DNA from: a virus
Direction: 5' to 3' (one strand)
IMG/VR virus record: IMGVR_UViG_3300045988_078221
Length of the DNA: 17,880 nucleotides
How positions within the stretch are numbered: position 1 is the first letter of the stretch; each line of letters opens with the position of its first letter. This document shows, piece after piece, positions 1 to 17,880 of this stretch. Both the position numbers and the translations under genes were made by a program. Below the pieces are notes generated by a model. That model worked only from the letters and a program-made list of their open reading frames with translations. It was not told where the DNA came from and did no database searches.

Positions 1-5
1 TTAGG

Positions 6-39
6 GTCTCGTGGGCTCGGAGATGTGTATAAGAGACAG
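6..39 (+). other. Synthetic Illumina Nextera adapter (read-2 tail GTCTCGTGGGCTCGG + 19-bp Tn5 mosaic end AGATGTGTATAAGAGACAG), not biological sequence
   Basis: Exact match by eye to the Nextera transposase adapter. The same string occurs reverse-complemented at the other end of the window. Confidence 0.97.
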
Positions 40-265
40 GTGCCCTCCCAGCTGCATTGCTTTTTCCACTGCTGCGTTGTGTGTGTGTGTGTGTGTGTTG
101 TGTTGTATTTTTTTGTTGGTGTTTCTTGTGTTGTGTATTTTATTTTTCTTTTTTTGTCGCGGTTTTTTGCGTGCTGTTTTGTTCTGTAATTTTTGGGCGC
201 TTGGTTTTGCTGTGGTTTATGCGCGTATATTTTTTCTCTGTTTTTTTTGTCGCTTCGGCGTGTCG
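40..265. repeat. Left inverted terminal repeat (ITR) of a linear protein-primed phage genome
   Basis: 40-265 is the reverse complement of 17615-17841, apart from a single 1-nt length difference in a homopolymer (T8 at 241-248 versus A9 at 17632-17640). The mirrored ORF translations in the track agree up to that indel. Similarity continues in degenerate form to about 312. Confidence 0.93.
78..98. repeat. (TG)10 dinucleotide microsatellite inside the left ITR (mirror copy (AC)10 at 17783-17803)
   Basis: Uninterrupted tgtgtg... run read directly from the sequence. Confidence 0.95.
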
Positions 266-277
266 CGCTTTTGTGTG

Positions 278-286
278 TGTTAGTAT
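278..286 (+). promoter_or_regulatory. Candidate left early promoter, extended -10-like element TGTTAGTAT
   Basis: TGnTAGTAT lies about 30 nt upstream of the first gene. The same element (TGCTAGTAT) is conserved at the mirror position of the right end, although the surrounding ITR extension has diverged. Confidence 0.4.
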
Positions 287-317
287 TAATAATGTCAACA
301 AGGAAAGGATGGACAAA

Positions 318-3888: not shown

Positions 3889-5361
3889 ATGGACGGAATC
3901 ATGCGGGAGCGTCGAATAGCGACAACAGACGGCGCGACATTGTGCACCGATGACGGCGCGGAACCGTTGACGGCGAATAGCGTCATACGCCTTACCATGC
4001 TCGATCACCATACGCGCGTATGGTGCGCCCACGGATGGCAGGACATCAAACCCGTAGCCACCGAACTGTTGCAACGACTGCCATTGCAGTCGAATCCAGC
4101 TAAAGACGGCGTGTGGGGTACATTCAACATTCGCGGTCATTTCTACAGTTTCCGGGTACGAATGGGCGGCGTCACTGTAGATTTCCTGGACGTGCGCAAT
4201 ATCACGCGCGACGACGGCCTGAATGTTTCACGTGAAACATTCGGCGGCATGAACGACTTGGAAACCACATGGAATATCGCACAGGAATGCGCTGCACTGA
4301 ACCTTAGGGGCACTACGATAGCGTCTATGGCAATGACCGACTATATCGACGGGGATTACGCCGGATTTCGGCGTCATTTTCCGCCGTTGATCAAAGAGGA
4401 TTATCACCGGATGCGCCCCGCCTACTATGGGGCGATAGTATACAGCAAGCCGGGAGAATATCAGGACTGCCGAAGCTGGGATGTGAACAGTCTCTACCCG
4501 AGTATCATGCGCGACGCTCCCATGCCGACAGGCCTCCCCATATGGTACGACGGAGAATATCGACATGACGATGATTATCCACTACATATTGACGTCATAT
4601 CGTTTGACGCAAGACTGAAACGAAAAAAAACGGCGACGCTCACAAATATCCTACCCGTATGGGGGTATGAGGGCGAACGTTTGGACAGTACGCTAGGCGT
4701 CGTCACCATGCCCGTAACCAATGTGGACTTGGAGACACTTACGGAAAACTATGATATGCACGTGTGGGAGCATGTCGGTGGCTGGAAATTCCGCAAATCG
4801 CATGGACTGTATTACAACTACGTAGACAAATGGTTTCACGTGAAACAGACCGCGACCGGAGAGCGCAGGCAAATGGCGAAACTGCTATTAAACTCGCTGG
4901 TGGGAAAATTCGGGGCCTCGCTCTACCGACCTCTACTGCATCCGAAACCATCTGTGGACGGTGGCGTGGATTTCACCGTGGACAAGCCTGAGTCGGCCAA
5001 CAGTTTGGCATGGTTGCCGACCGCCGCTTATGTCAATGCCTACGGCAGACAGATACTATCCCGTGCGATGAATGCGAACAGCGGTCGCGTGCTCTACGCC
5101 GACACCGACGGCATGATATTGGAGGGGCTAGACGCGCCTATAGGTATCGAACCGAACGATCAGAAACTAGGCGCGTGGAAAAACGATCACACCTACGAAA
5201 AACTCCGTATCCTAGGCAACCGTAAATACGCCGGCGTGGAAACATGCGGTGATATTGTCATGCGCTTGAGCGGCGTGCATCGGGCCGCACCTATCCCCTA
5301 CGACGAGTTTACAACCGGGTCGCACCACCTCAATGACGACGGCCATGTTTTCGTGCTATAA
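3889..5361 (+). CDS. Protein-primed family-B DNA polymerase (phi29 gp2-like), compact at 490 aa
   Basis: RBS AAAGGA lies before ATG 3889. Recognisable motifs:
- DVNSLYPS (motif A; phi29 DVNSLYPAQM);
- KLLLNSLVGKFG (motif B; phi29 KLMLNSLYGKFA);
- YADTDG (motif C; phi29 YCDTDS);
- LGAWKNDH and GNRKY (KxY). Confidence 0.95.
   Translation: MDGIMRERRIATTDGATLCTDDGAEPLTANSVIRLTMLDHHTRVWCAHGWQDIKPVATELLQRLPLQSNPAKDGVWGTFNIRGHFYSFRVRMGGVTVDFLDVRNITRDDGLNVSRETFGGMNDLETTWNIAQECAALNLRGTTIASMAMTDYIDGDYAGFRRHFPPLIKEDYHRMRPAYYGAIVYSKPGEYQDCRSWDVNSLYPSIMRDAPMPTGLPIWYDGEYRHDDDYPLHIDVISFDARLKRKKTATLTNILPVWGYEGERLDSTLGVVTMPVTNVDLETLTENYDMHVWEHVGGWKFRKSHGLYYNYVDKWFHVKQTATGERRQMAKLLLNSLVGKFGASLYRPLLHPKPSVDGGVDFTVDKPESANSLAWLPTAAYVNAYGRQILSRAMNANSGRVLYADTDGMILEGLDAPIGIEPNDQKLGAWKNDHTYEKLRILGNRKYAGVETCGDIVMRLSGVHRAAPIPYDEFTTGSHHLNDDGHVFVL
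4224..4239. promoter_or_regulatory. Perfect parS (ParB/Spo0J binding site) TGTTTCACGTGAAACA, site 1
   Basis: Exact match to the 16-bp chromosomal parS consensus TGTTNCACGTGAAACA. It is embedded in a 22-bp perfect palindrome at 4221-4242 and lies in polymerase codons N-V-S-R-E-T-F. Confidence 0.8.
4832..4847. promoter_or_regulatory. parS site 2 (GGTTTCACGTGAAACA; 14-bp core perfect, 15/16 to consensus)
   Basis: The core GTTTCACGTGAAAC at 4833-4846 is a perfect palindrome. It is read in a different phase from site 1 (W-F-H-V-K-Q). Confidence 0.75.
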
Positions 5362-5905: not shown

Positions 5906-7633
5906 ATGTCAACCACTCCAGTGGTGACGCCGAAGCAGCAGCTTCGCCCGCTCACCGAATTCAACAACTCCCAGATTCTCAATATGATTCGCAACGAGGC
6001 TTCCCCCGAATATCAGCGCCGTATGCCGTCGGCCACTCAAATGAACATGGACCGCCAGATGGCTACACTCATGTCCAGTACTCAGCTGAAGAACGAGTTC
6101 TATTCGGCGCTGGTGAACCGCATCGGCGGCACCTATGTGAACACATGGCGGTGGAATAATCCGCTCAGTGTTTTCCAGCGAGCATCTCAGGCGTATGGCG
6201 ACACGTGGCAGGAAATCGCCGTGGGAATGCCGCTTGCCCAAGTATATGACCCGAACGCGGAATATCTCGGCGCAGATAATTTCCGCAAGTGGAAGATCGA
6301 CGTGGATTCACTGTATCATCGTCTCGATTTTGCTCACTGGTATCCGGCGACCACGGACGACAAGACACTCCAGCGGGCATTCACGTCCGAAAACGGGTTG
6401 GCATCCCTCACCTCGCAGATTCTCACCTCTTGCTATAATGCAGCCGAAGTGGACTTGTTCGAGGCCATGTGTCACCAGTTCGTCGAGTATGCCAAGCTCG
6501 GCGGATACTGGCGCATCCACATGGAACATGATCTCAACAACATGGGTTCGACGGAAACCGACGCCCGTGACATGTTGCGGCAGATTCGCGCATGGGCTGA
6601 TACGTTGAAATTCGTGTCCACTCGATACAATGCCCGTCATATGCCGACGTTCGCCCGCCCCGATGAGCTTGTACTGTTCTGCTCGCCCGAGGTCAAGTCG
6701 GCGCTTGACGTGCAGGGTCTGGCGACCGTATTCCAGCGTACTGACGCGGAACCAACCATCGACCGGATTATCGTCATCCCACAGGACCGTTTCGGCATGG
6801 ACGGCGTACAGGCCATCTTGACCACCGACAAGTTCCTGATCGACATCCCCGTCATCAACGAGATGACCCAACAGACCAATCCAGTCAATATCAATTCGGT
6901 CAACCATTATCTGCATGTCCAGCATATTATCAGCGTGTCCGGCTTCGCCCCCGCCGTCATGTTCTGGACGGGAAAGGGTTCCACTGCCAACGTGGTGGTT
7001 CCTACCGGTACGACGGCCAAGACACCAACGTTCCAACTTAAGCTCGCGATGTACGGCGGCGGCACGGAAACCCCGAAAAACGTAGCACGAGGCGGCGCGG
7101 TGCAGGTCACCGCCGATACATCCATCAGCAATGACGGTAAGGCCACGTTCCGTTCGGACGCCGTTGAATATCGTATTGGTGATACCGTTAAGCCGAAGAG
7201 CGATTACACGTACATTTCGCCCACCGGCGTGCTGGTAGTCGGCCTTGACGAGCCGAACACCACTCTCCCGGTGACGGCGACCGCGCTGTACACGAATCCG
7301 GCGACGCCGGAAGTGCCGGGCACCGTGTCCGCCGCCCTGGACGTGCCGGTGGTCGGTGATGGTGTCATTGGATTCAACCCGTCGATCATCGCATCCATTA
7401 CCGTAACCGTGCCGAACGTGACCACGGGCCATACGGTACAGGCGTCCGCCGCAGCGACCATGATCGACGGGCGTACCGCCGACGTGACCACACAGGCCGC
7501 ATGGACATCCGGCACTCCAGAGAACGCTACCGTGTCCGAATCGGGTATGGTGTCAGGTGTCAAGGTGGGCGCGTCCGACATCACCGCCACGCTGTTCGGC
7601 GTGTCCGGCAAGGCCAGTGTGACCGTGTCTTAG
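5906..7633 (+). CDS. Major capsid protein (phi29 gp8-like) with C-terminal Ig-like (Big_2-type) domains
   Basis: RBS GAAAGGA lies upstream. Three segments match phi29 gp8 as I recall it:
- ILNMIRNEASPEYQRRMPSAT (phi29 [21 protein letters not shown]);
- NEFYSALVNRIGG (phi29 NDFITSLVDRIG);
- CYNAAEVDLFEAM (phi29 IYNSAEVDEYEYM).
The C-terminal ...TVQASAAATMIDGRTADVTTQAAWTSGTPENATVSESGMVSGVKVGASDITATLFGVSGKASVTVS is a typical Big_2 repeat. Confidence 0.92.
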   Translation: MSTTPVVTPKQQLRPLTEFNNSQILNMIRNEASPEYQRRMPSATQMNMDRQMATLMSSTQLKNEFYSALVNRIGGTYVNTWRWNNPLSVFQRASQAYGDTWQEIAVGMPLAQVYDPNAEYLGADNFRKWKIDVDSLYHRLDFAHWYPATTDDKTLQRAFTSENGLASLTSQILTSCYNAAEVDLFEAMCHQFVEYAKLGGYWRIHMEHDLNNMGSTETDARDMLRQIRAWADTLKFVSTRYNARHMPTFARPDELVLFCSPEVKSALDVQGLATVFQRTDAEPTIDRIIVIPQDRFGMDGVQAILTTDKFLIDIPVINEMTQQTNPVNINSVNHYLHVQHIISVSGFAPAVMFWTGKGSTANVVVPTGTTAKTPTFQLKLAMYGGGTETPKNVARGGAVQVTADTSISNDGKATFRSDAVEYRIGDTVKPKSDYTYISPTGVLVVGLDEPNTTLPVTATALYTNPATPEVPGTVSAALDVPVVGDGVIGFNPSIIASITVTVPNVTTGHTVQASAAATMIDGRTADVTTQAAWTSGTPENATVSESGMVSGVKVGASDITATLFGVSGKASVTVS

Positions 7634-7686: not shown

Positions 7687-7729
7687 GCAAGGCCCGGAGC
7701 GCAACCCACGTGAGCGCTCCGGGCCTTGC
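7687..7729 (+). terminator. Strong GC-rich hairpin (16-bp perfect stem, 11-nt loop) between the capsid and tail-knob genes; candidate terminator/attenuator
   Basis: GCAAGGCCCGGAGCGC (7687-7702) pairs perfectly with GCGCTCCGGGCCTTGC (7714-7729). There is no U-tract. It ends 7 nt before the tail-knob RBS GGAGG (7736-7740). Confidence 0.55.
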
Positions 7730-7748
7730 CATACCGGAGGTCGGATTA

Positions 7749-10076
7749 ATGATTAATGACGCGAACCCCTACGTGGAGGCCAGTTTTTCTTGGGCAGAAT
7801 GGACACCCAACACTACGCTGAAGCTCTGTCGAGTCCCATGGGACGCCTCATACCGTGATGTCGTCCGGTTTGTTTCACGTGAAACACAGGAACAGTGGTT
7901 CGATCAAGTGGATGGCGTGGAATGCCGTCCGGCCACCATGCATATTTTCAACGCGCCCGCCCGTATCGAACTCCCGTTCAACGAGGCGTCGAACTGGAAC
8001 TATCTCGTAGCCTATAACGACTATCCCGGTTTGGAAGGGCCGCGAGCATGGTATTACTTTATCCAGCGCGTCGAGTACGTCAACGCCCATTGCACGCAAC
8101 TGGTCCTGATGCTGGACGTGTGGCAAAGCTTCCAGCACGATATCACGTTCGGCAGTTGCTACGTGACGCGCGGGCATATCGGCGTGGCCAATGAACACCA
8201 GTGGGACGGTTACGGGCGCACCTATCTGGCACTCCCGGAGGGCTTGGACACCGGCAGTGAGATGGTAACGACGGCACAACGATATCATTCCATCATATCA
8301 GGGCAACATCTGGACACCGTTCATGGGAAATTGAATTGGGTCGATTATGGCGTGATCGTCGTGAGCACCACGGATTTAACCAAGTCTCCCGGCAGTGAGT
8401 CAAAACCCGATCTGAACACGGCACAGGGCAGTGTATTCGAGGGTGCGACGGATGGATGCGCTGTCTATTATTGCGAATCCCGACTGGGTTACGTGGCGAG
8501 CATCATGTCATACGGGGCAGCATACCCGTGGGTCACTCAAGGCATCTGCGCAGTGTATATGGTGCCGAAGATTCCGAAGGATTACATCAATCGCTACGGT
8601 CAGGAGGTAACACAGATTTTAGGCCAGCCGATCAATGCGCGGTGGGGGCGAGTCTATAGTTTCCAAAGCGGCGTTGATTCGAACATGCGCTACGAAGACA
8701 TCATGACGGTACCCGGTTTCAGAAATCTTTTTAAGATTCCGCGACGATATCGCAATCTTCACAAGCTATACTGCTACCCTTACTGTGTCGTGGAATGTAG
8801 CTGCCTCAACGGCGCAGTGGTCAATTACAGGCCGGAAGACATTCAGTCAGATGATCTCGTTATTCGGGAAACGTACACATATGCCCCGTCCGGCACGCGA
8901 ATCAATTTCTATGTTCCCGGATACAATGAGGCCGGGGCGGACACGCTGACCCCGATTCAGATCAATAACCAAGGATACGGCTTGCCCATTGACGGCGGAG
9001 AGATGCTTAACGCCAGTTTCGGTATCACCAATCTGCCACATTTTTCCGTCGTCAATAATGGCGGTGCGCTGGCTACGGCGAACAGCGCGTATACTCGCGC
9101 ATATGCGCAGGAGTCTGCGCAATGGACGCGCCAGAAGGCGCTGGCGTCGGCGGATGTCGCCAATTCCAATTCGATGTGGCAACGCGAATACGCCTCACGC
9201 CAAACTAACCTAGCCAACGAAAACCGCACCGCAAATAACGCCATTACGGCAAACTCGCTGAACCAGTCACTCGCTATCGGGCAGAACCAAACCAATCAGA
9301 TGGCCAGCTTGCAGGTGGAACAGAACATCAGGAACAATAATCTCGACGGCATGGCCAGCATTATCGGCGGAGGGTTGAACGCCATCGTCAACCGCGACCC
9401 GCTAGGCGCGGTGAACGCGGTCGGCGGCGCGTTCCTCGGCTCTGCGCGGACGGATATAGCTAATCACGGCATCAATTCATCGGCCGCCATTTCCAATTCC
9501 GCAGCGGCAGCGAGTACGGCCAATCAGATCGCCACCAACGCGGCGGCCACCTCGCAAGCCAACGCTTACGCAAGCGGGGCGACCGGATTGAGCAATCAAC
9601 TCAACGCCATCACATCACAAGCCAATTATGGACTGGCCGCTTACGCCGCCCAAGGCGATTACCAGAACGCCATCGCGGGCATCAATGCCCAAGTCCAGCA
9701 GATGCAGCTCACCCCGCCCACCACGTCCGGGGCGCTCGGCGGAGACATGTTCAACCTGTCGAACGGCATCATGGGCGTGTTGGTCAGGTTCAAGACATGC
9801 GCACCGAGCGCGTTGAGATCGGCAGGTGAATACATGTTGCGTTATGGGTATTTTGTCCAACGTTTCATCACCCCGCCCCCTTCGTTGGAATGTATGACGA
9901 AATTCACGTTCTGGCAGATGCAGGAAGCGTATGTGAGGGGTATGCTGCCCGAGGAATATCGCCTGACCATCAAAGGCCTGTTCGAACGGGGCGTGACCGT
10001 ATGGAACAAGCCGGAATACATTGGCGTGACGGACTGGGCGGATAATGAGCCTCTGTCGGGCATCAGCTATGAGTGA
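7749..10076 (+). CDS. Tail knob protein (phi29 gp9-like)
   Basis: GGAGG lies 8 nt before ATG 7749; the track ORF start at GTG 7710 falls inside the hairpin loop. Four segments match phi29 gp9 as I recall it:
- WYYFIQRVEYVN...LMLDVWQSF (phi29 WFYAFVTELEFKN...EIDVLQTWMF);
- LYCYPYCVVE (phi29 LMMYPYCVTE);
- YMLRYGYFVQR (phi29 FFHKYGYKINR);
- GVTVWNKPEYIG (phi29 GITLWHTDNIG). Confidence 0.88.
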   Translation: MINDANPYVEASFSWAEWTPNTTLKLCRVPWDASYRDVVRFVSRETQEQWFDQVDGVECRPATMHIFNAPARIELPFNEASNWNYLVAYNDYPGLEGPRAWYYFIQRVEYVNAHCTQLVLMLDVWQSFQHDITFGSCYVTRGHIGVANEHQWDGYGRTYLALPEGLDTGSEMVTTAQRYHSIISGQHLDTVHGKLNWVDYGVIVVSTTDLTKSPGSESKPDLNTAQGSVFEGATDGCAVYYCESRLGYVASIMSYGAAYPWVTQGICAVYMVPKIPKDYINRYGQEVTQILGQPINARWGRVYSFQSGVDSNMRYEDIMTVPGFRNLFKIPRRYRNLHKLYCYPYCVVECSCLNGAVVNYRPEDIQSDDLVIRETYTYAPSGTRINFYVPGYNEAGADTLTPIQINNQGYGLPIDGGEMLNASFGITNLPHFSVVNNGGALATANSAYTRAYAQESAQWTRQKALASADVANSNSMWQREYASRQTNLANENRTANNAITANSLNQSLAIGQNQTNQMASLQVEQNIRNNNLDGMASIIGGGLNAIVNRDPLGAVNAVGGAFLGSARTDIANHGINSSAAISNSAAAASTANQIATNAAATSQANAYASGATGLSNQLNAITSQANYGLAAYAAQGDYQNAIAGINAQVQQMQLTPPTTSGALGGDMFNLSNGIMGVLVRFKTCAPSALRSAGEYMLRYGYFVQRFITPPPSLECMTKFTFWQMQEAYVRGMLPEEYRLTIKGLFERGVTVWNKPEYIGVTDWADNEPLSGISYE
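7871..7886. promoter_or_regulatory. Perfect parS TGTTTCACGTGAAACA, site 3
   Basis: Identical 16-mer to site 1, here inside the tail-knob gene (F-V-S-R-E-T-Q). Confidence 0.8.
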
Positions 10077-13410: not shown

Positions 13411-13440
13411 TACGTCTATCGTACCCCACTGCTCACCGCC

Positions 13441-14724
13441 GTGGGGTATACTATTATCATGGATAATACCGCATACTACGCCATGTACGTTATAGGCACT
13501 GTGGAGAGCAATTGCGATTGGGGCGCTTGCAATTACGTTGACGCGATCACCATGGGCATGATGCAATGGTACGGTACACGTGCCCGCGATCTCCTGAAAC
13601 GAGGACGCACTACCGACCCCGACGGATGGAGCACGTTCGCCGCAGCCGCGCCCACACTCGCCCAGCAGGTACAGGACAATACTATTAACTGGACGGCACG
13701 CTACCTAACCATGGCAGAGGGCAACGCTTGGAAGGTTTGGGCGCAACATGCTCAGAATCATATGTTCCAGGAAGCGCAGTGGGAGGATGACTGGAAGGGG
13801 TACATGTCCACTATGGACAGGTACGGTTTCCCGGCGGGCAGCGTGAAAGAGCGCATACTGTGGGCGAGTGCCTACCATCAGTCTCCCGCGCGGGCGCAGC
13901 GCGTACTGGCGTCATGCTCTGCGACGGCCACGCTCAAACTGTTGTACACCACCATTCTGGCGGACGGCGTACTGGGGCAGTATCGCAATCGATACACCAC
14001 CGTCTATAATCTGCTCAAAGCATGGGACGGCACGTCTGCGCCGCCCGATTTTGGCCAAACCTCCAGCCCGTCGGACACGCCGGGAGGCGATCACCCCGGC
14101 ATCGAAGGCAGTCCAGCGAGTACCGCGTGGATACAATTGCACGGCGATAATCTCATCTACCGTGCAGACGACACTACGGCAATATTTGTCAAAAGCTCGG
14201 CACAGACGTGGGTGTACAAGACTTCCGAATCGACCAAACCGGGCGGCGGCCAGACTTCAGGCGGGTCAAGCTCCGGCAGCAGCAGCAAAGACGCCCAGCG
14301 CGTCGTGGAGTGGTTGCGGGCACGAATCGGCAAATACGCCTACTCGCAGGGCGGCGGACGATTGGACCCGGACAGTTCCGGTTATGGCGACTGTAGTTCG
14401 GTATGCTGGAGGGCGTACCAGAATGTGCTGGGCATTGATGTGGGCACATGGACAGGAGCCATGGCAGGCAAAGGTCGGCGCGTGTGTGGCAGTTCGGACA
14501 CGTCCATAGCGGACGCCATTGCCAAAGCCCATGCGGCCGATCTGCTCTTGCTGGACTGGGGTGCATACACACAGTCATGGGACCATGTAGAGATGTTCAC
14601 TACGGACGGCAAGGATGAGGCATTGTCTCACGGCGGACCGGGAAACGGACCGAATTTGCGTGTGGCGTCGGACGCGATGCATAGGGCAAGTCGGTGGGAG
14701 ATACGTCGATATATCACCGACTAG
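13441..14724 (+). CDS. Tail-associated peptidoglycan hydrolase (phi29 gp13 analogue): lysozyme-like N-domain + NlpC/P60 (CHAP-like) C-domain
   Basis: The N-terminal GTVESNCDW...GMMQWYG resembles phi29 gp13 GNMQSEST...GLVQWT. A Gly/Ser linker (GGGQTSGGSSSGSSS) follows. The C-domain carries GYGDCSSVCWRAY (catalytic Cys) and WDHVEMF (His). The start is uncertain (GTG 13441 or ATG 13459). Confidence 0.8.
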   Translation: MGYTIIMDNTAYYAMYVIGTVESNCDWGACNYVDAITMGMMQWYGTRARDLLKRGRTTDPDGWSTFAAAAPTLAQQVQDNTINWTARYLTMAEGNAWKVWAQHAQNHMFQEAQWEDDWKGYMSTMDRYGFPAGSVKERILWASAYHQSPARAQRVLASCSATATLKLLYTTILADGVLGQYRNRYTTVYNLLKAWDGTSAPPDFGQTSSPSDTPGGDHPGIEGSPASTAWIQLHGDNLIYRADDTTAIFVKSSAQTWVYKTSESTKPGGGQTSGGSSSGSSSKDAQRVVEWLRARIGKYAYSQGGGRLDPDSSGYGDCSSVCWRAYQNVLGIDVGTWTGAMAGKGRRVCGSSDTSIADAIAKAHAADLLLLDWGAYTQSWDHVEMFTTDGKDEALSHGGPGNGPNLRVASDAMHRASRWEIRRYITD

Positions 14725-16259: not shown

Positions 16260-17304
16260 GACAAGCGCATACAGTGTAATTGCCGCAATCACAGCACTGT
16301 TGCTGGTATTCGTGCCATCCGCGAACGCGGCAGACATGATCGACGTATCCAGTTGGCAAACCGGTATCAACGTCACCACGTCCGGTGCGCAGATCGTCGT
16401 GACCAAAGCAACCGAAGGCACCAGCTATGTCAACCCGGACTGCAACCGCGTCGTACAAGATGCTCTTGCAGCTGGACAGGGCGTAGGAGTCTACCATTTC
16501 GCACACACCGAAAACAACCCCCGGCGCGAAGCTCAATACTTCATCAACCACACTCGCGGATATATTGGAAAAGGTATCGTGCCTATCCTCGACTGGGAGC
16601 CATCCGCCCCGTGGGATACCAGTTGGGCGCTCACATGGCTGCGCACCGTGGAAGCCGCATGGGGCACCAAACCAATAATCTACACATATCAGTACGTAGA
16701 AAATACATACAACTGGAGTAACGTAGTAGCAGGCAACTACGGTCTATGGATTGCCGCATATACACGAGGGGAAACGCCGATCTACGGCTTCAACCCACCA
16801 GACAGGCAGCCCACACTACGACACTGGCCGTTCGCCGTCGCATGGCAGTACACGGGCACCGGATATCTAAAAAACTGGCGTGGCCCCCTCGATCTCAGCG
16901 TAGTGTACGGCGACCTAAACACATGGCACGCATACGCAGGCAGCCGCCCGACCGCTTCTAACAAGCCCGCGCCCGCACTCAAACCCGCACCCAAACCGCA
17001 GCCCAGTACACCGGCAGCCAATTGTGTCGTCATCCAAAAAGGACAATATGTAAGTATGTTTTGGAGAGATTGGTGGAACGTTACCGTTCCTAGCAGGAAC
17101 CCGTCAATCGTATACCCCGGAGATAGGGCATGCCACCACGGAAGCGGCACCGCCGCTTCCACCACACGCCGCACGTACGTCGTACGATCTGGCGACACGC
17201 TGTCTGCAATCGCCAGACGGCTCGGAGTCAGCATATATAGTATCAAGGGGTATCGTTCTGGGAATATGAACCTGATTTATCCGGGTGAAGTGCTACGCTA
17301 TTAA
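16243..17304 (+). CDS. Endolysin: N-terminal Sec-type signal peptide + GH25 muramidase + Pro-rich linker + LysM
   Basis: - Signal peptide: MTRKIKTSAYSVIAAITALLLVFVPSANA|AD has n-, h- and c-regions with an AxA site.
- GH25 signatures: DVSSWQ, KATEGTSY, GVYHF, LDWE, WQYT.
- Linker: KPAPALKPAPKPQP.
- C-terminal LysM: YVVRSGDTLSAIARRLGVSIYSIKGYRSGNMNLIYPGEVL. Confidence 0.92.
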   Translation: MTRKIKTSAYSVIAAITALLLVFVPSANAADMIDVSSWQTGINVTTSGAQIVVTKATEGTSYVNPDCNRVVQDALAAGQGVGVYHFAHTENNPRREAQYFINHTRGYIGKGIVPILDWEPSAPWDTSWALTWLRTVEAAWGTKPIIYTYQYVENTYNWSNVVAGNYGLWIAAYTRGETPIYGFNPPDRQPTLRHWPFAVAWQYTGTGYLKNWRGPLDLSVVYGDLNTWHAYAGSRPTASNKPAPALKPAPKPQPSTPAANCVVIQKGQYVSMFWRDWWNVTVPSRNPSIVYPGDRACHHGSGTAASTTRRTYVVRSGDTLSAIARRLGVSIYSIKGYRSGNMNLIYPGEVLRY

Positions 17305-17322: not shown

Positions 17323-17361
17323 ATAAAATCGCCCCCTAGGATGACTAGGGGGCGATTTTAT
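17323..17361. terminator. Bidirectional intrinsic terminator between the convergent endolysin gene and the right-end gene
   Basis: ATAAAATCGCCCCCTAG (17323-17339) pairs perfectly with CTAGGGGGCGATTTTAT (17345-17361), with a 5-nt loop. The GC-rich core is flanked by an A-run on one side and a T-run on the other. Confidence 0.88.
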
Positions 17362-17550: not shown

Positions 17551-17593
17551 TTATTTACCATCCTTTTTTCCGTTACCCTTGCTGACACCACTA

Positions 17594-17602
17594 ATACTAG
17601 CA
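17594..17602 (-). promoter_or_regulatory. Candidate right early promoter, extended -10-like element TGCTAGTAT (minus strand)
   Basis: Reverse complement of ATACTAGCA. Mirror image of 278-286, positioned upstream of the only minus-strand gene. Confidence 0.4.
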
Positions 17603-17614
17603 CACAACAAAAAA

Positions 17615-17841
17615 CGACACGCCGAAGCGACAAAAAAAAACAGAGAAAAAATATACGCGCATAAACCACAGCAAAACCAAGCGCCCAAAAATTACAGAAC
17701 AAAACAGCACGCAAAAAACCGCGACAAAAAAAGAAAAATAAAATACACAACACAAGAAACACCAACAAAAAAATACAACACAACACACACACACACACAC
17801 ACAACGCAGCAGTGGAAAAAGCAATGCAGCTGGGAGGGCAC
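17615..17841. repeat. Right inverted terminal repeat (ITR)
   Basis: Reverse complement of 40-265 with one extra A in the homopolymer. Degenerate similarity continues inward to about 17558. Confidence 0.93.
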
Positions 17842-17875
17842 CTGTCTCTTATACACATCTCCGAGCCCACGAGAC
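17842..17875 (-). other. Synthetic Illumina Nextera adapter (reverse complement of 6-39)
   Basis: CTGTCTCTTATACACATCTCCGAGCCCACGAGAC is the exact reverse complement of the left-end adapter. Confidence 0.97.
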
Positions 17876-17880
17876 CCTAA

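What the first reader, a model, noticed from the sequence alone, without database searches (positions are those of the whole stretch)
4221..4847. Two canonical bacterial centromere (parS) sites embedded in the phage DNA polymerase gene
Positions 4224-4239 read TGTTTCACGTGAAACA and sit inside a 22-bp perfect palindrome, GAATGTTTCACGTGAAACATTC, at 4221-4242. Positions 4833-4846 read GTTTCACGTGAAAC; the surrounding 16-mer GGTTTCACGTGAAACA matches the consensus at 15/16.

This is the ParB/Spo0J binding site (consensus TGTTNCACGTGAAACA) that serves as the chromosomal centromere across Firmicutes, Actinobacteria, Caulobacter and many others.

Site 1 is translated N-V-S-R-E-T-F. Site 2 is read in another phase as W-F-H-V-K-Q. 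The conserved unit is therefore the DNA word, not a peptide. One particular 14-mer is expected on the order of 1e-4 times in 17.9 kb, so three copies (see the third site at 7871) cannot be chance.

My hypothesis is that the phage loads host ParB (a CTP-dependent sliding clamp) onto its TP-capped linear genome. Possible purposes:
- partition of the genome in a carrier state, or spore entrapment. As I recall, Spo0J was implicated in trapping phi29 DNA in Bacillus subtilis spores;
- recruitment of SMC, or positioning of replication factories;
- titration of ParB away from the host origin as phage copies amplify.

I am not aware of perfect-consensus parS sites having been described in a small phi29-like phage like this one.
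Basis: partly seen in the sequence, partly recalled or inferred. Interest (0 to 1): 0.88.

Follow-up and report, generated by a model that had tools for sequence, protein, structure and literature searches.

The report
Host centromere sites in gut phage
A small phi29-like gut phage, probably of Bifidobacterium, carries three copies of the bacterial centromere sequence parS that selection keeps intact at the DNA level; this is most likely the known phi29 trick of borrowing the host's ParB protein, here in a host that probably cannot make spores.

Summary
There are perfect 16-bp parS sites at 4224-4239 and 7871-7886, and a 15/16 site with a perfect 14-bp core at 4832-4847. No other site lies within 3 mismatches.

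They are not chance. None of 5000 synonymous-codon shuffles gave a perfect site.

The DNA word is under selection:
- Across 81 related genomes the sites are among the most conserved 16-mers of the polymerase gene (site 1 contains the top one; site 2 ranks 21 of 1458). Wobble positions are 0.90-0.99 conserved at most codons inside the sites, against about 0.4-0.7 in the flanks.
- About 40 relatives with a different tail allele lack the coding tail site. They carry a perfect parS in the capsid-tail intergenic spacer instead, and no genome has both.

The interpretation (hijack of host ParB) is reasonable, but the novelty claim is wrong. phi29 is published as having five parS sites used with Spo0J for spore entrapment, and my scan finds four perfect ones.

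What is new is the context. This is a very abundant human-gut clade whose closest cultured relatives are Bifidobacterium phages, which infect non-sporulating hosts. It has no excess of Spo0A boxes and no phage ParA/ParB. A sister clade of 80 genomes has no parS at all.

Best explanation: host ParB loads on the phage genome and tethers or partitions it. ParB binding was not tested and the host is inferred.

The parts
4221..4242 (.). parS site 1. The perfect 16-mer is at 4224-4239, inside a perfect 22-bp palindrome, within the polymerase gene (codons N-V-S-R-E-T-F).
   Evidence: The 16-mer starting at 4223 is the most conserved of the whole polymerase gene across 81 genomes: exact in 75%, against a median window of 20%.
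4832..4847 (.). parS site 2. It matches 15/16 with a perfect 14-bp core. The one mismatch is the G of a conserved Trp codon. It is read in another frame (W-F-H-V-K-Q), just upstream of polymerase motif B.
   Evidence: Rank 21 of 1458 windows for exact conservation. The F-H-V residues are not conserved in Bifidobacterium phage polymerases.
7871..7886 (.). parS site 3, a perfect 16-mer in the tail-knob gene (codons F-V-S-R-E-T).
   Evidence: It is present only in relatives with the window-like tail allele. Relatives with the other allele read F-E-S-P-Q-K here and carry an intergenic parS instead.
3889..5361 (+). Protein-primed family-B DNA polymerase gene, which hosts sites 1 and 2.
   Evidence: PF03175 with E = 7e-34 and phrog_1907 with E = 7e-54.
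7748..10076 (+). Tail-knob (gp9-like) gene, which hosts site 3. The ATG at 7748 is a more likely start than the GTG at 7710, because 7710 lies inside the upstream hairpin.
   Evidence: PF20934 and phrog_2248. Start inferred by comparison with the relatives' N-termini.
7687..7729 (+). Capsid-tail intergenic hairpin (-38 kcal/mol). In about 40 relatives this spacer instead holds a perfect parS, inside a GGGAG...CTCCC hairpin followed by a T-run.
13411..13440 (.). Intergenic spacer upstream of the antireceptor-like gene. There is no parS here in the window, but about 15 relatives carry a fourth, non-coding parS at the equivalent place.
1..303 (.). Left inverted terminal repeat: 248 nt are 100% complementary to the right end, then about 60 nt at 84%. 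The first ~40 nt are sequencing adapter.
17577..17880 (.). Right inverted terminal repeat. The last ~40 nt are sequencing adapter.

Best explanation
The three words are functional parS sites. They are read by the chromosomally encoded ParB of the host, which is most likely a Bifidobacterium.

Proposed mechanism: ParB loads at the sites and spreads over the 17.9-kb linear genome. This couples the genome to the host's ParABS/origin segregation apparatus, so an infecting or quiescent phage genome is positioned and inherited with the nucleoid (a carrier state). It is the same molecular trick that phi29 uses with Spo0J, but without the spore.

Shown here:
- the sites exist and are non-random;
- they are held by nucleotide-level selection;
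- they are replaced by non-coding copies when the coding context changes.

Inferred:
- that ParB binds them;
- which bacterium the host is;
- that the benefit is partition or tethering rather than ParB titration.
For: 1. The sites match the universal chromosomal parS consensus exactly over 16 bp. The same consensus is used to find the 1-10 parS sites in all 12 OMM12 gut genomes, Bifidobacterium included, and all of those genomes have ParABS (PMC10197239). All Actinobacteria surveyed have ParABS (PMC4255298).
2. No perfect site arose in 5000 synonymous shuffles.
3. Across 81 genomes with 79-98% nucleotide identity, parS codons have a synonymous entropy of 0.45, against 0.81 elsewhere (Mann-Whitney p = 0.0025). 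Flanking Gly, Leu and Phe codons vary freely. Third-position conservation is 0.90-0.99 at most codons inside the sites.
4. Placement is complementary. 33 genomes have the coding tail site, about 40 have an intergenic site, and none has both. About 15 have an additional non-coding site.
5. The residues encoded by the sites (NVSR, FHV) are not conserved in related polymerases outside the clade.
6. No ParB or ParA domain was found in any phage ORF, and no early gene co-varies with parS.
7. There is a precedent: phi29 has five parS sites and Spo0J-dependent segregation of its genome (PMC2731898; my scan).
8. The trait recurs. 25 of the first 120 viral contigs holding the perfect 16-mer are phi29-like phages from divergent clades. 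Cultured Enterococcus phage Athos and Clostridium phage CI55P1 also have perfect sites.
Against: - There is no binding or in-vivo evidence.
- The host is inferred only from best hits to Bifidobacterium phages: polymerase 33-38%, capsid 37-42%, antireceptor 50-54%, endolysin 53%. Two scans of 185,579 reference genomes found nothing.
- The sites are dispensable. 80 genomes of the sister clade around B. dentium phage BD811P2 have none, and four cultured Bifidobacterium podophages have none. Three members of this clade lost all sites by synonymous changes, and one of them keeps an 81%-identical antireceptor.
- No repressor or other means of holding a quiescent state is recognisable.
- A non-replicating genome tethered to one origin would pass to only one daughter cell.
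- The terminal protein is assigned by gene position only.
Confidence: 0.6

Rival explanations
1. ParB sponge. The sites exist to titrate host ParB away from the chromosomal origin as phage copies amplify (hundreds of copies times 3 sites). This would disturb SMC loading, chromosome segregation or division timing to the phage's benefit. It would not serve to partition the phage genome.
For: The sequence evidence for ParB recognition is the same as for the best explanation. The phage looks strictly lytic: holin and endolysin are present, and there is no integrase, repressor or partition gene. Several sites per small genome fit a decoy.
Against: The only experimentally studied case, phi29, points to segregation of the phage genome rather than host sabotage (PMC2731898). 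The strict one-or-the-other pattern at the capsid-tail junction suggests a need for a site at that position rather than for as many sites as possible. The sister clade does well without sites.
Confidence: 0.15
2. Spore entrapment exactly as in phi29. The host would be a spore-forming Firmicute, and ParB/Spo0J would carry the phage genome into the forespore.
For: phi29 and Nf carry the same word and use it this way. Many low-GC phi29-like gut contigs also carry parS.
Against: Every informative protein has Actinobacteria phages as its best cultured relatives, chiefly Bifidobacterium phages, including the antireceptor and the endolysin. GC is about 53%. Gene order is collinear with B. dentium phage BD811P2. 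Spo0A boxes (TGTCGAA) are at chance, 2 found against 2.9 expected, and none is near a promoter region.
Confidence: 0.07
3. The palindromes are read by a phage-encoded protein, or act as RNA or DNA hairpins (terminators, packaging or replication signals). On this view the match to parS is coincidental or only ancestral.
For: Six early proteins have no recognisable function. In about 40 relatives the intergenic copy forms the core of a strong terminator-like hairpin: -22 kcal/mol, z = -7.2, followed by a U-run.
Against: An exact 16/16 match to a host consensus, repeated at 3-5 unrelated positions and in many unrelated phi29-like clades, is not expected for a private phage operator. The coding copies lack the extended stem and the T-run. 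No early gene co-varies with presence of the sites. The window uses a different hairpin at the same junction.
Confidence: 0.08

Closest known systems
parS sites of Bacillus phages phi29 and Nf, used with host Spo0J (ParB) for spore entrapment (Meijer et al. 2005, as summarised in PMC2731898)
   Same: - Small phi29-like podovirus with a protein-primed polymerase.
- Several copies of the host chromosomal parS word, mostly inside coding genes, with one next to a terminator: phi29 site 17243 abuts TD1.
- No phage ParB.
   Different: - The host is probably a non-sporulating Bifidobacterium.
- There is no excess of Spo0A boxes.
- The sites lie in the polymerase and tail genes in the left-centre of the genome, not in phi29's late/right region.
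- The word is the fully symmetric TGTTTCACGTGAAACA, against phi29's TGTTTCACGTGGAACA.
Chromosomal ParABS centromeres of Firmicutes and Actinobacteria
   Same: The 16-bp palindrome is identical.
   Different: - The sites are on a virus, not near oriC.
- There are no adjacent parAB genes.
- They are embedded in unrelated coding sequences.
Self-encoded parABS cassettes of plasmid prophages (P1, N15, extrachromosomal actinobacteriophages)
   Same: A phage genome carrying a centromere. (This comparison rests on my own knowledge.)
   Different: Those elements encode their own ParA and ParB and have their own parS specificity. Here no such genes exist and the word is the host's.

Membership tests
Chromosomal-type parS (ParB/Spo0J binding site) | Match to the 16-bp palindromic consensus TGTTNCACGTGAAACA | tested here: met
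   Two sites match 16/16 and one matches 15/16 with a perfect 14-bp core.
Chromosomal-type parS (ParB/Spo0J binding site) | Nucleotide-level constraint beyond what the coding sequence forces | tested here: met
   Non-coding replacement copies occur in relatives.
Chromosomal-type parS (ParB/Spo0J binding site) | Bound by a ParB protein present in the same cell | not testable with these tools
   The host is inferred, not identified (searches were empty). The literature says Bifidobacterium and all Actinobacteria have ParABS and this consensus.
phi29-type spore-entrapment system (parS plus Spo0A boxes in a sporulating host) | Host-type parS sites on a phi29-like genome | tested here: met
phi29-type spore-entrapment system (parS plus Spo0A boxes in a sporulating host) | Consensus 0A boxes (TGTCGAA) at early and late promoters | tested here: not met
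   2 boxes found against 2.9 expected by chance. Both lie inside genes, at 1782 and 9757.
phi29-type spore-entrapment system (parS plus Spo0A boxes in a sporulating host) | Endospore-forming host | tested here: inconclusive
   All best cultured relatives infect Bifidobacterium or other Actinobacteria. The host itself is not identified.
Self-encoded phage/plasmid parABS partition cassette | Element encodes its own ParB (and usually ParA) | tested here: not met
   No ParB or ParA domain was found in 20 ORFs against Pfam and PHROGs.
phi29-like protein-primed podoviruses | Protein-primed family-B polymerase, phi29-type capsid, connector, gp16 ATPase and inverted terminal repeats | tested here: met
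   PF03175, PF25622, PF05352 and PF05894. ITR of 248 nt. The terminal protein itself is not recognisable by sequence.

The most novel reading that the evidence does not exclude
Borrowing the host centromere may be a general, overlooked strategy of phi29-like 'virulent' phages, well beyond spore-formers. In non-sporulating gut hosts such as Bifidobacterium (this clade) and Enterococcus (phage Athos), host ParB would load on the small linear genome and give it plasmid-like inheritance or polar positioning. That would be a carrier state needing no integrase, repressor or partition genes, and it could help explain how strictly lytic small podoviruses persist in the gut.
Probability: 0.3. Interest if true: 0.75.

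Novelty: new member of a known kind. Interest (0 to 1): 0.55.

Why it matters
The element and its logic are known from phi29. Here it turns up under clear purifying selection in one of the most abundant small-phage clades of the human gut: more than 1260 endolysin variants are found in public assemblies. The likely host cannot sporulate.

If host ParB really binds, a phage regarded as purely lytic would have a way to ride the host's segregation machinery. That bears on phage persistence, on pseudolysogeny, and on the design of Bifidobacterium phage tools.

The clade also offers natural controls. Some members have lost parS while keeping a similar antireceptor, and a whole sister clade has no parS. 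This makes the question directly testable.

Tried and rejected
- Host identification by scanning 185,579 reference genomes with the polymerase and with the endolysin: both scans found nothing.
- The one NCBI contig carrying a clade endolysin (GCA_001292545.1, 48 kb) is a chimera of the phage's right end with lambdoid prophage genes. It says nothing about the host.
- The endolysin homologue search returned only clade members, without organism names.
- Spo0A boxes are at chance.
- The CACGTG hexamer is at chance, so the signal is not a restriction-site or E-box effect.
- Phage-encoded ParB/ParA or another recognisable DNA binder: none found.
- No early gene correlates with parS presence.
- Rfam, including pRNA: no match.
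- The promoter and terminator consensus scans were uninformative.
- The terminal-protein candidate shows no similarity to the Av-1 terminal protein.
- The wobble test on the tail gene was underpowered, because that gene exists as two very divergent alleles.
- Meijer 2005 and Livny 2007 are not held in the library. The phi29 facts are therefore cited through PMC2731898.

Full report
**What the window is.** The 17,880 bases are a complete linear genome of a phi29-like podovirus.
- It has inverted terminal repeats: 248 nt at 100% complementarity, then about 60 nt at 84%.
- All major genes lie on the + strand. They include a phi29-type SSB (2378-2815), a protein-primed family-B polymerase (3889-5361), a phi29-type capsid protein (5906-7633) and a gp9-like tail knob (about 7748-10076). 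They also include the connector, the lower collar, a GDSL protein, an antireceptor-like protein (13441-14724), the gp16 packaging ATPase, a holin and a secreted GH25-LysM endolysin.
- GC is about 53%.
- The outermost ~40 nt at each end match Nextera adapter sequence and hit dozens of unrelated phage records. They are artefacts.

**The observation.** It is exact. There are two perfect 16-bp parS words, at 4224 and 7871, and one 15/16 word with a perfect 14-bp core at 4832. Nothing else lies within three mismatches. Sites 1 and 3 are read in the same phase as V-S-R-E-T in two unrelated proteins. Site 2 is read in another phase as W-F-H-V-K-Q.

**Chance.** I shuffled synonymous codons within each gene, keeping proteins and codon usage. 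In 5000 shuffles no perfect site appeared. Because the peptides are fixed, near-sites do arise: a site with at most 1 mismatch appeared in 18% of shuffles. The informative signal is therefore the perfection of the wobble positions. The CACGTG core is not enriched.

**Relatives.** IMG/VR holds at least 115 genomes whose polymerase is 85-98% identical. Most are from one large human-gut set, and 80 were fetched. The endolysin has more than 1260 close variants on contigs that are mostly up to ~17-19 kb long in public assemblies. Of the 80 genomes, 73 have at least two sites with at most 1 mismatch, at the same positions.

**Selection on the DNA word in the polymerase gene.** The 81 sequences share 79-98% nucleotide identity.
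- The codons GTT TCA CGT GAA are nearly fixed, while the flanking Gly, Leu and Phe codons vary freely.
- Synonymous entropy is 0.45 in parS codons against 0.81 elsewhere (p = 0.0025).
- The 16-mer at 4223 is the most conserved of all 1458 windows, and site 2 ranks 21st.
- Outside the clade the encoded residues are not conserved. Bifidobacterium phage polymerases read TELF or ITMT where this clade reads NVSR, and SEL, GDL or YGR where it reads FHV.

**The strongest single result.** The tail gene occurs as two alleles that are only about 56% identical at the protein level.
- Genomes with the window-like allele have the coding site (F-V-S-R-E-T).
- Genomes with the other allele read F-E-S-P-Q-K there. 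They carry a perfect parS in the capsid-tail intergenic spacer instead.
- That intergenic copy sits in a GGGAG-parS-CTCCC hairpin followed by a T-run: -22 kcal/mol, z = -7.2.
- The two placements never co-occur: 33 genomes against about 40.
- About 15 genomes add a further non-coding site upstream of the antireceptor gene.
- So the same word is kept in two coding frames and in two non-coding contexts.

**Losses.** Three genomes (L065, L069, L070; GC 57-59%) kept the peptides but lost every site through synonymous changes. L070 still has an antireceptor 81% identical to the window's. The sites are therefore beneficial but not essential.

**Who reads the sites.** No phage ORF has a ParB or ParA domain. 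No early gene co-varies with parS. The word is the universal chromosomal consensus, so a host ParB is the parsimonious reader.

**Host.** The evidence points to Bifidobacterium.
- The best cultured relatives of the polymerase (33-38%), capsid (37-42%) and antireceptor (50-54%; 11 of 15 hits) are all Bifidobacterium podophages.
- The endolysin is 53% identical over its full length to that of unrelated Bifidobacterium siphophages.
- Gene order is collinear with B. dentium phage BD811P2.
- Published work reports ParABS and this consensus in Bifidobacterium, and ParABS in all Actinobacteria.
- The host remains an inference, because the reference-genome scans were empty.

**What is already known.** phi29 is reported to carry five parS sites, and Spo0J helps to segregate its genome into the forespore. 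Spo0A boxes silence the phage (PMC2731898). I find four perfect sites in phi29 and two in Nf. A 2024 review of phi29-like diversity does not mention parS at all.

**Distribution elsewhere.**
- Four cultured Bifidobacterium podophages, Eggerthella LE1-1, Actinomyces Av-1, and Arthrobacter, Curtobacterium and Microbacterium phages have none.
- 80 relatives of BD811P2 (1.18 Mb in total) also have none.
- Enterococcus phage Athos has one perfect and one 1-mismatch site. Clostridium phage CI55P1 has one perfect site, inside its polymerase gene. Bacillus phage MG-B1 has two 1-mismatch sites.
- Of the first 120 viral contigs holding the perfect 16-mer, 25 are phi29-like and come from many divergent clades.

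**Mechanism.** I commit to this: host ParB loads at the sites and couples the phage genome to the host partition and origin apparatus, giving tethering or inheritance in a quiescent or carrier state.
- That ParB binds: about 0.75.
- The full statement: 0.6.
- ParB titration is the main rival (0.15).
- Spore entrapment is unlikely (0.07), given the host evidence and chance-level 0A boxes.
- A private phage operator or a pure hairpin role is also unlikely (0.08).

**Verdict.** This is a real, selected feature of a known kind in a new and ecologically important clade, with a likely change of cellular context. Interest is moderate to high.

Noticed in passing
window 1-41 and 17840-17880: Both ends carry Nextera transposase adapter sequence (GTCTCGTGGGCTCGGAGATGTGTATAAGAGACAG). 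It matches dozens of unrelated phage records at 97-100%. The true genome ends lie about 40 nt inside, and the '248-nt perfect ITR' includes this artefact.
   Followed up: partly
window 78-260 and its mirror 17620-17803: The ITRs contain a (TG)n tract and several T-rich direct repeats ending in TTTTTTTGTCGC (repeat families D1 and D4). These may be replication-origin or early-promoter elements.
   Followed up: no
L010:7530-7585 and about 40 other relatives (capsid-tail spacer): In these relatives the parS palindrome is the core of a strong terminator-like hairpin with a U-run, so one sequence may serve as both centromere and terminator. phi29's site at 17243 also abuts its TD1 terminator.
   Followed up: yes
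L172-L291 (viral contigs holding the perfect 16-mer): 25 of 120 are phi29-like podophage contigs from many divergent clades. Their GC is 32-53%, and several carry 2-4 perfect sites. parS carriage looks like a recurrent trait of the whole group.
   Followed up: partly
L298 (Enterococcus phage Athos) 4788 and 1252; L293 (Clostridium phage CI55P1) 4504; L299 (Bacillus phage MG-B1) 13884 and 24729: Cultured phi29-like phages outside B. subtilis also carry perfect or 1-mismatch parS sites. One of them infects a non-sporulating Enterococcus. CI55P1's site also lies in its polymerase gene.
   Followed up: partly
L089 (NCBI GCA_001292545.1, contig CYGL01000076.1, 48 kb): The right end of a clade member (ATPase, holin, endolysin) is joined to lambdoid prophage genes (RusA, Q antiterminator, hok, Ea22). 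This is almost certainly a chimeric assembly.
   Followed up: partly
window about 4255-4275: In relatives, a second highly conserved stretch about 20 nt downstream of site 1 reads TTGGAAACCACGTGGAA, which contains a CCACGTGG palindrome and is exact in about 70% of genomes. The window itself reads CCACATGG there.
   Followed up: no
window 7748-10076 and 13441-14724: The clade is mosaic. The tail-knob gene exists as two alleles about 56% identical at the protein level, and the antireceptor-like protein has a median identity of only 39%. Polymerase, capsid and portal stay at 88-93%.
   Followed up: partly
window 3889-5361: The polymerase is short (490 aa, against 575 in phi29). Family profiles match only from about residue 124 onward, so the N-terminal exonuclease region is reduced or very divergent. 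The same holds in Bifidobacterium phage polymerases (445-471 aa).
   Followed up: no
window, whole: No packaging RNA (pRNA) or any other Rfam family was detected at E <= 0.1, although phi29-like packaging normally needs a pRNA. A strong perfect hairpin lies at 17323-17361, downstream of the endolysin gene.
   Followed up: no
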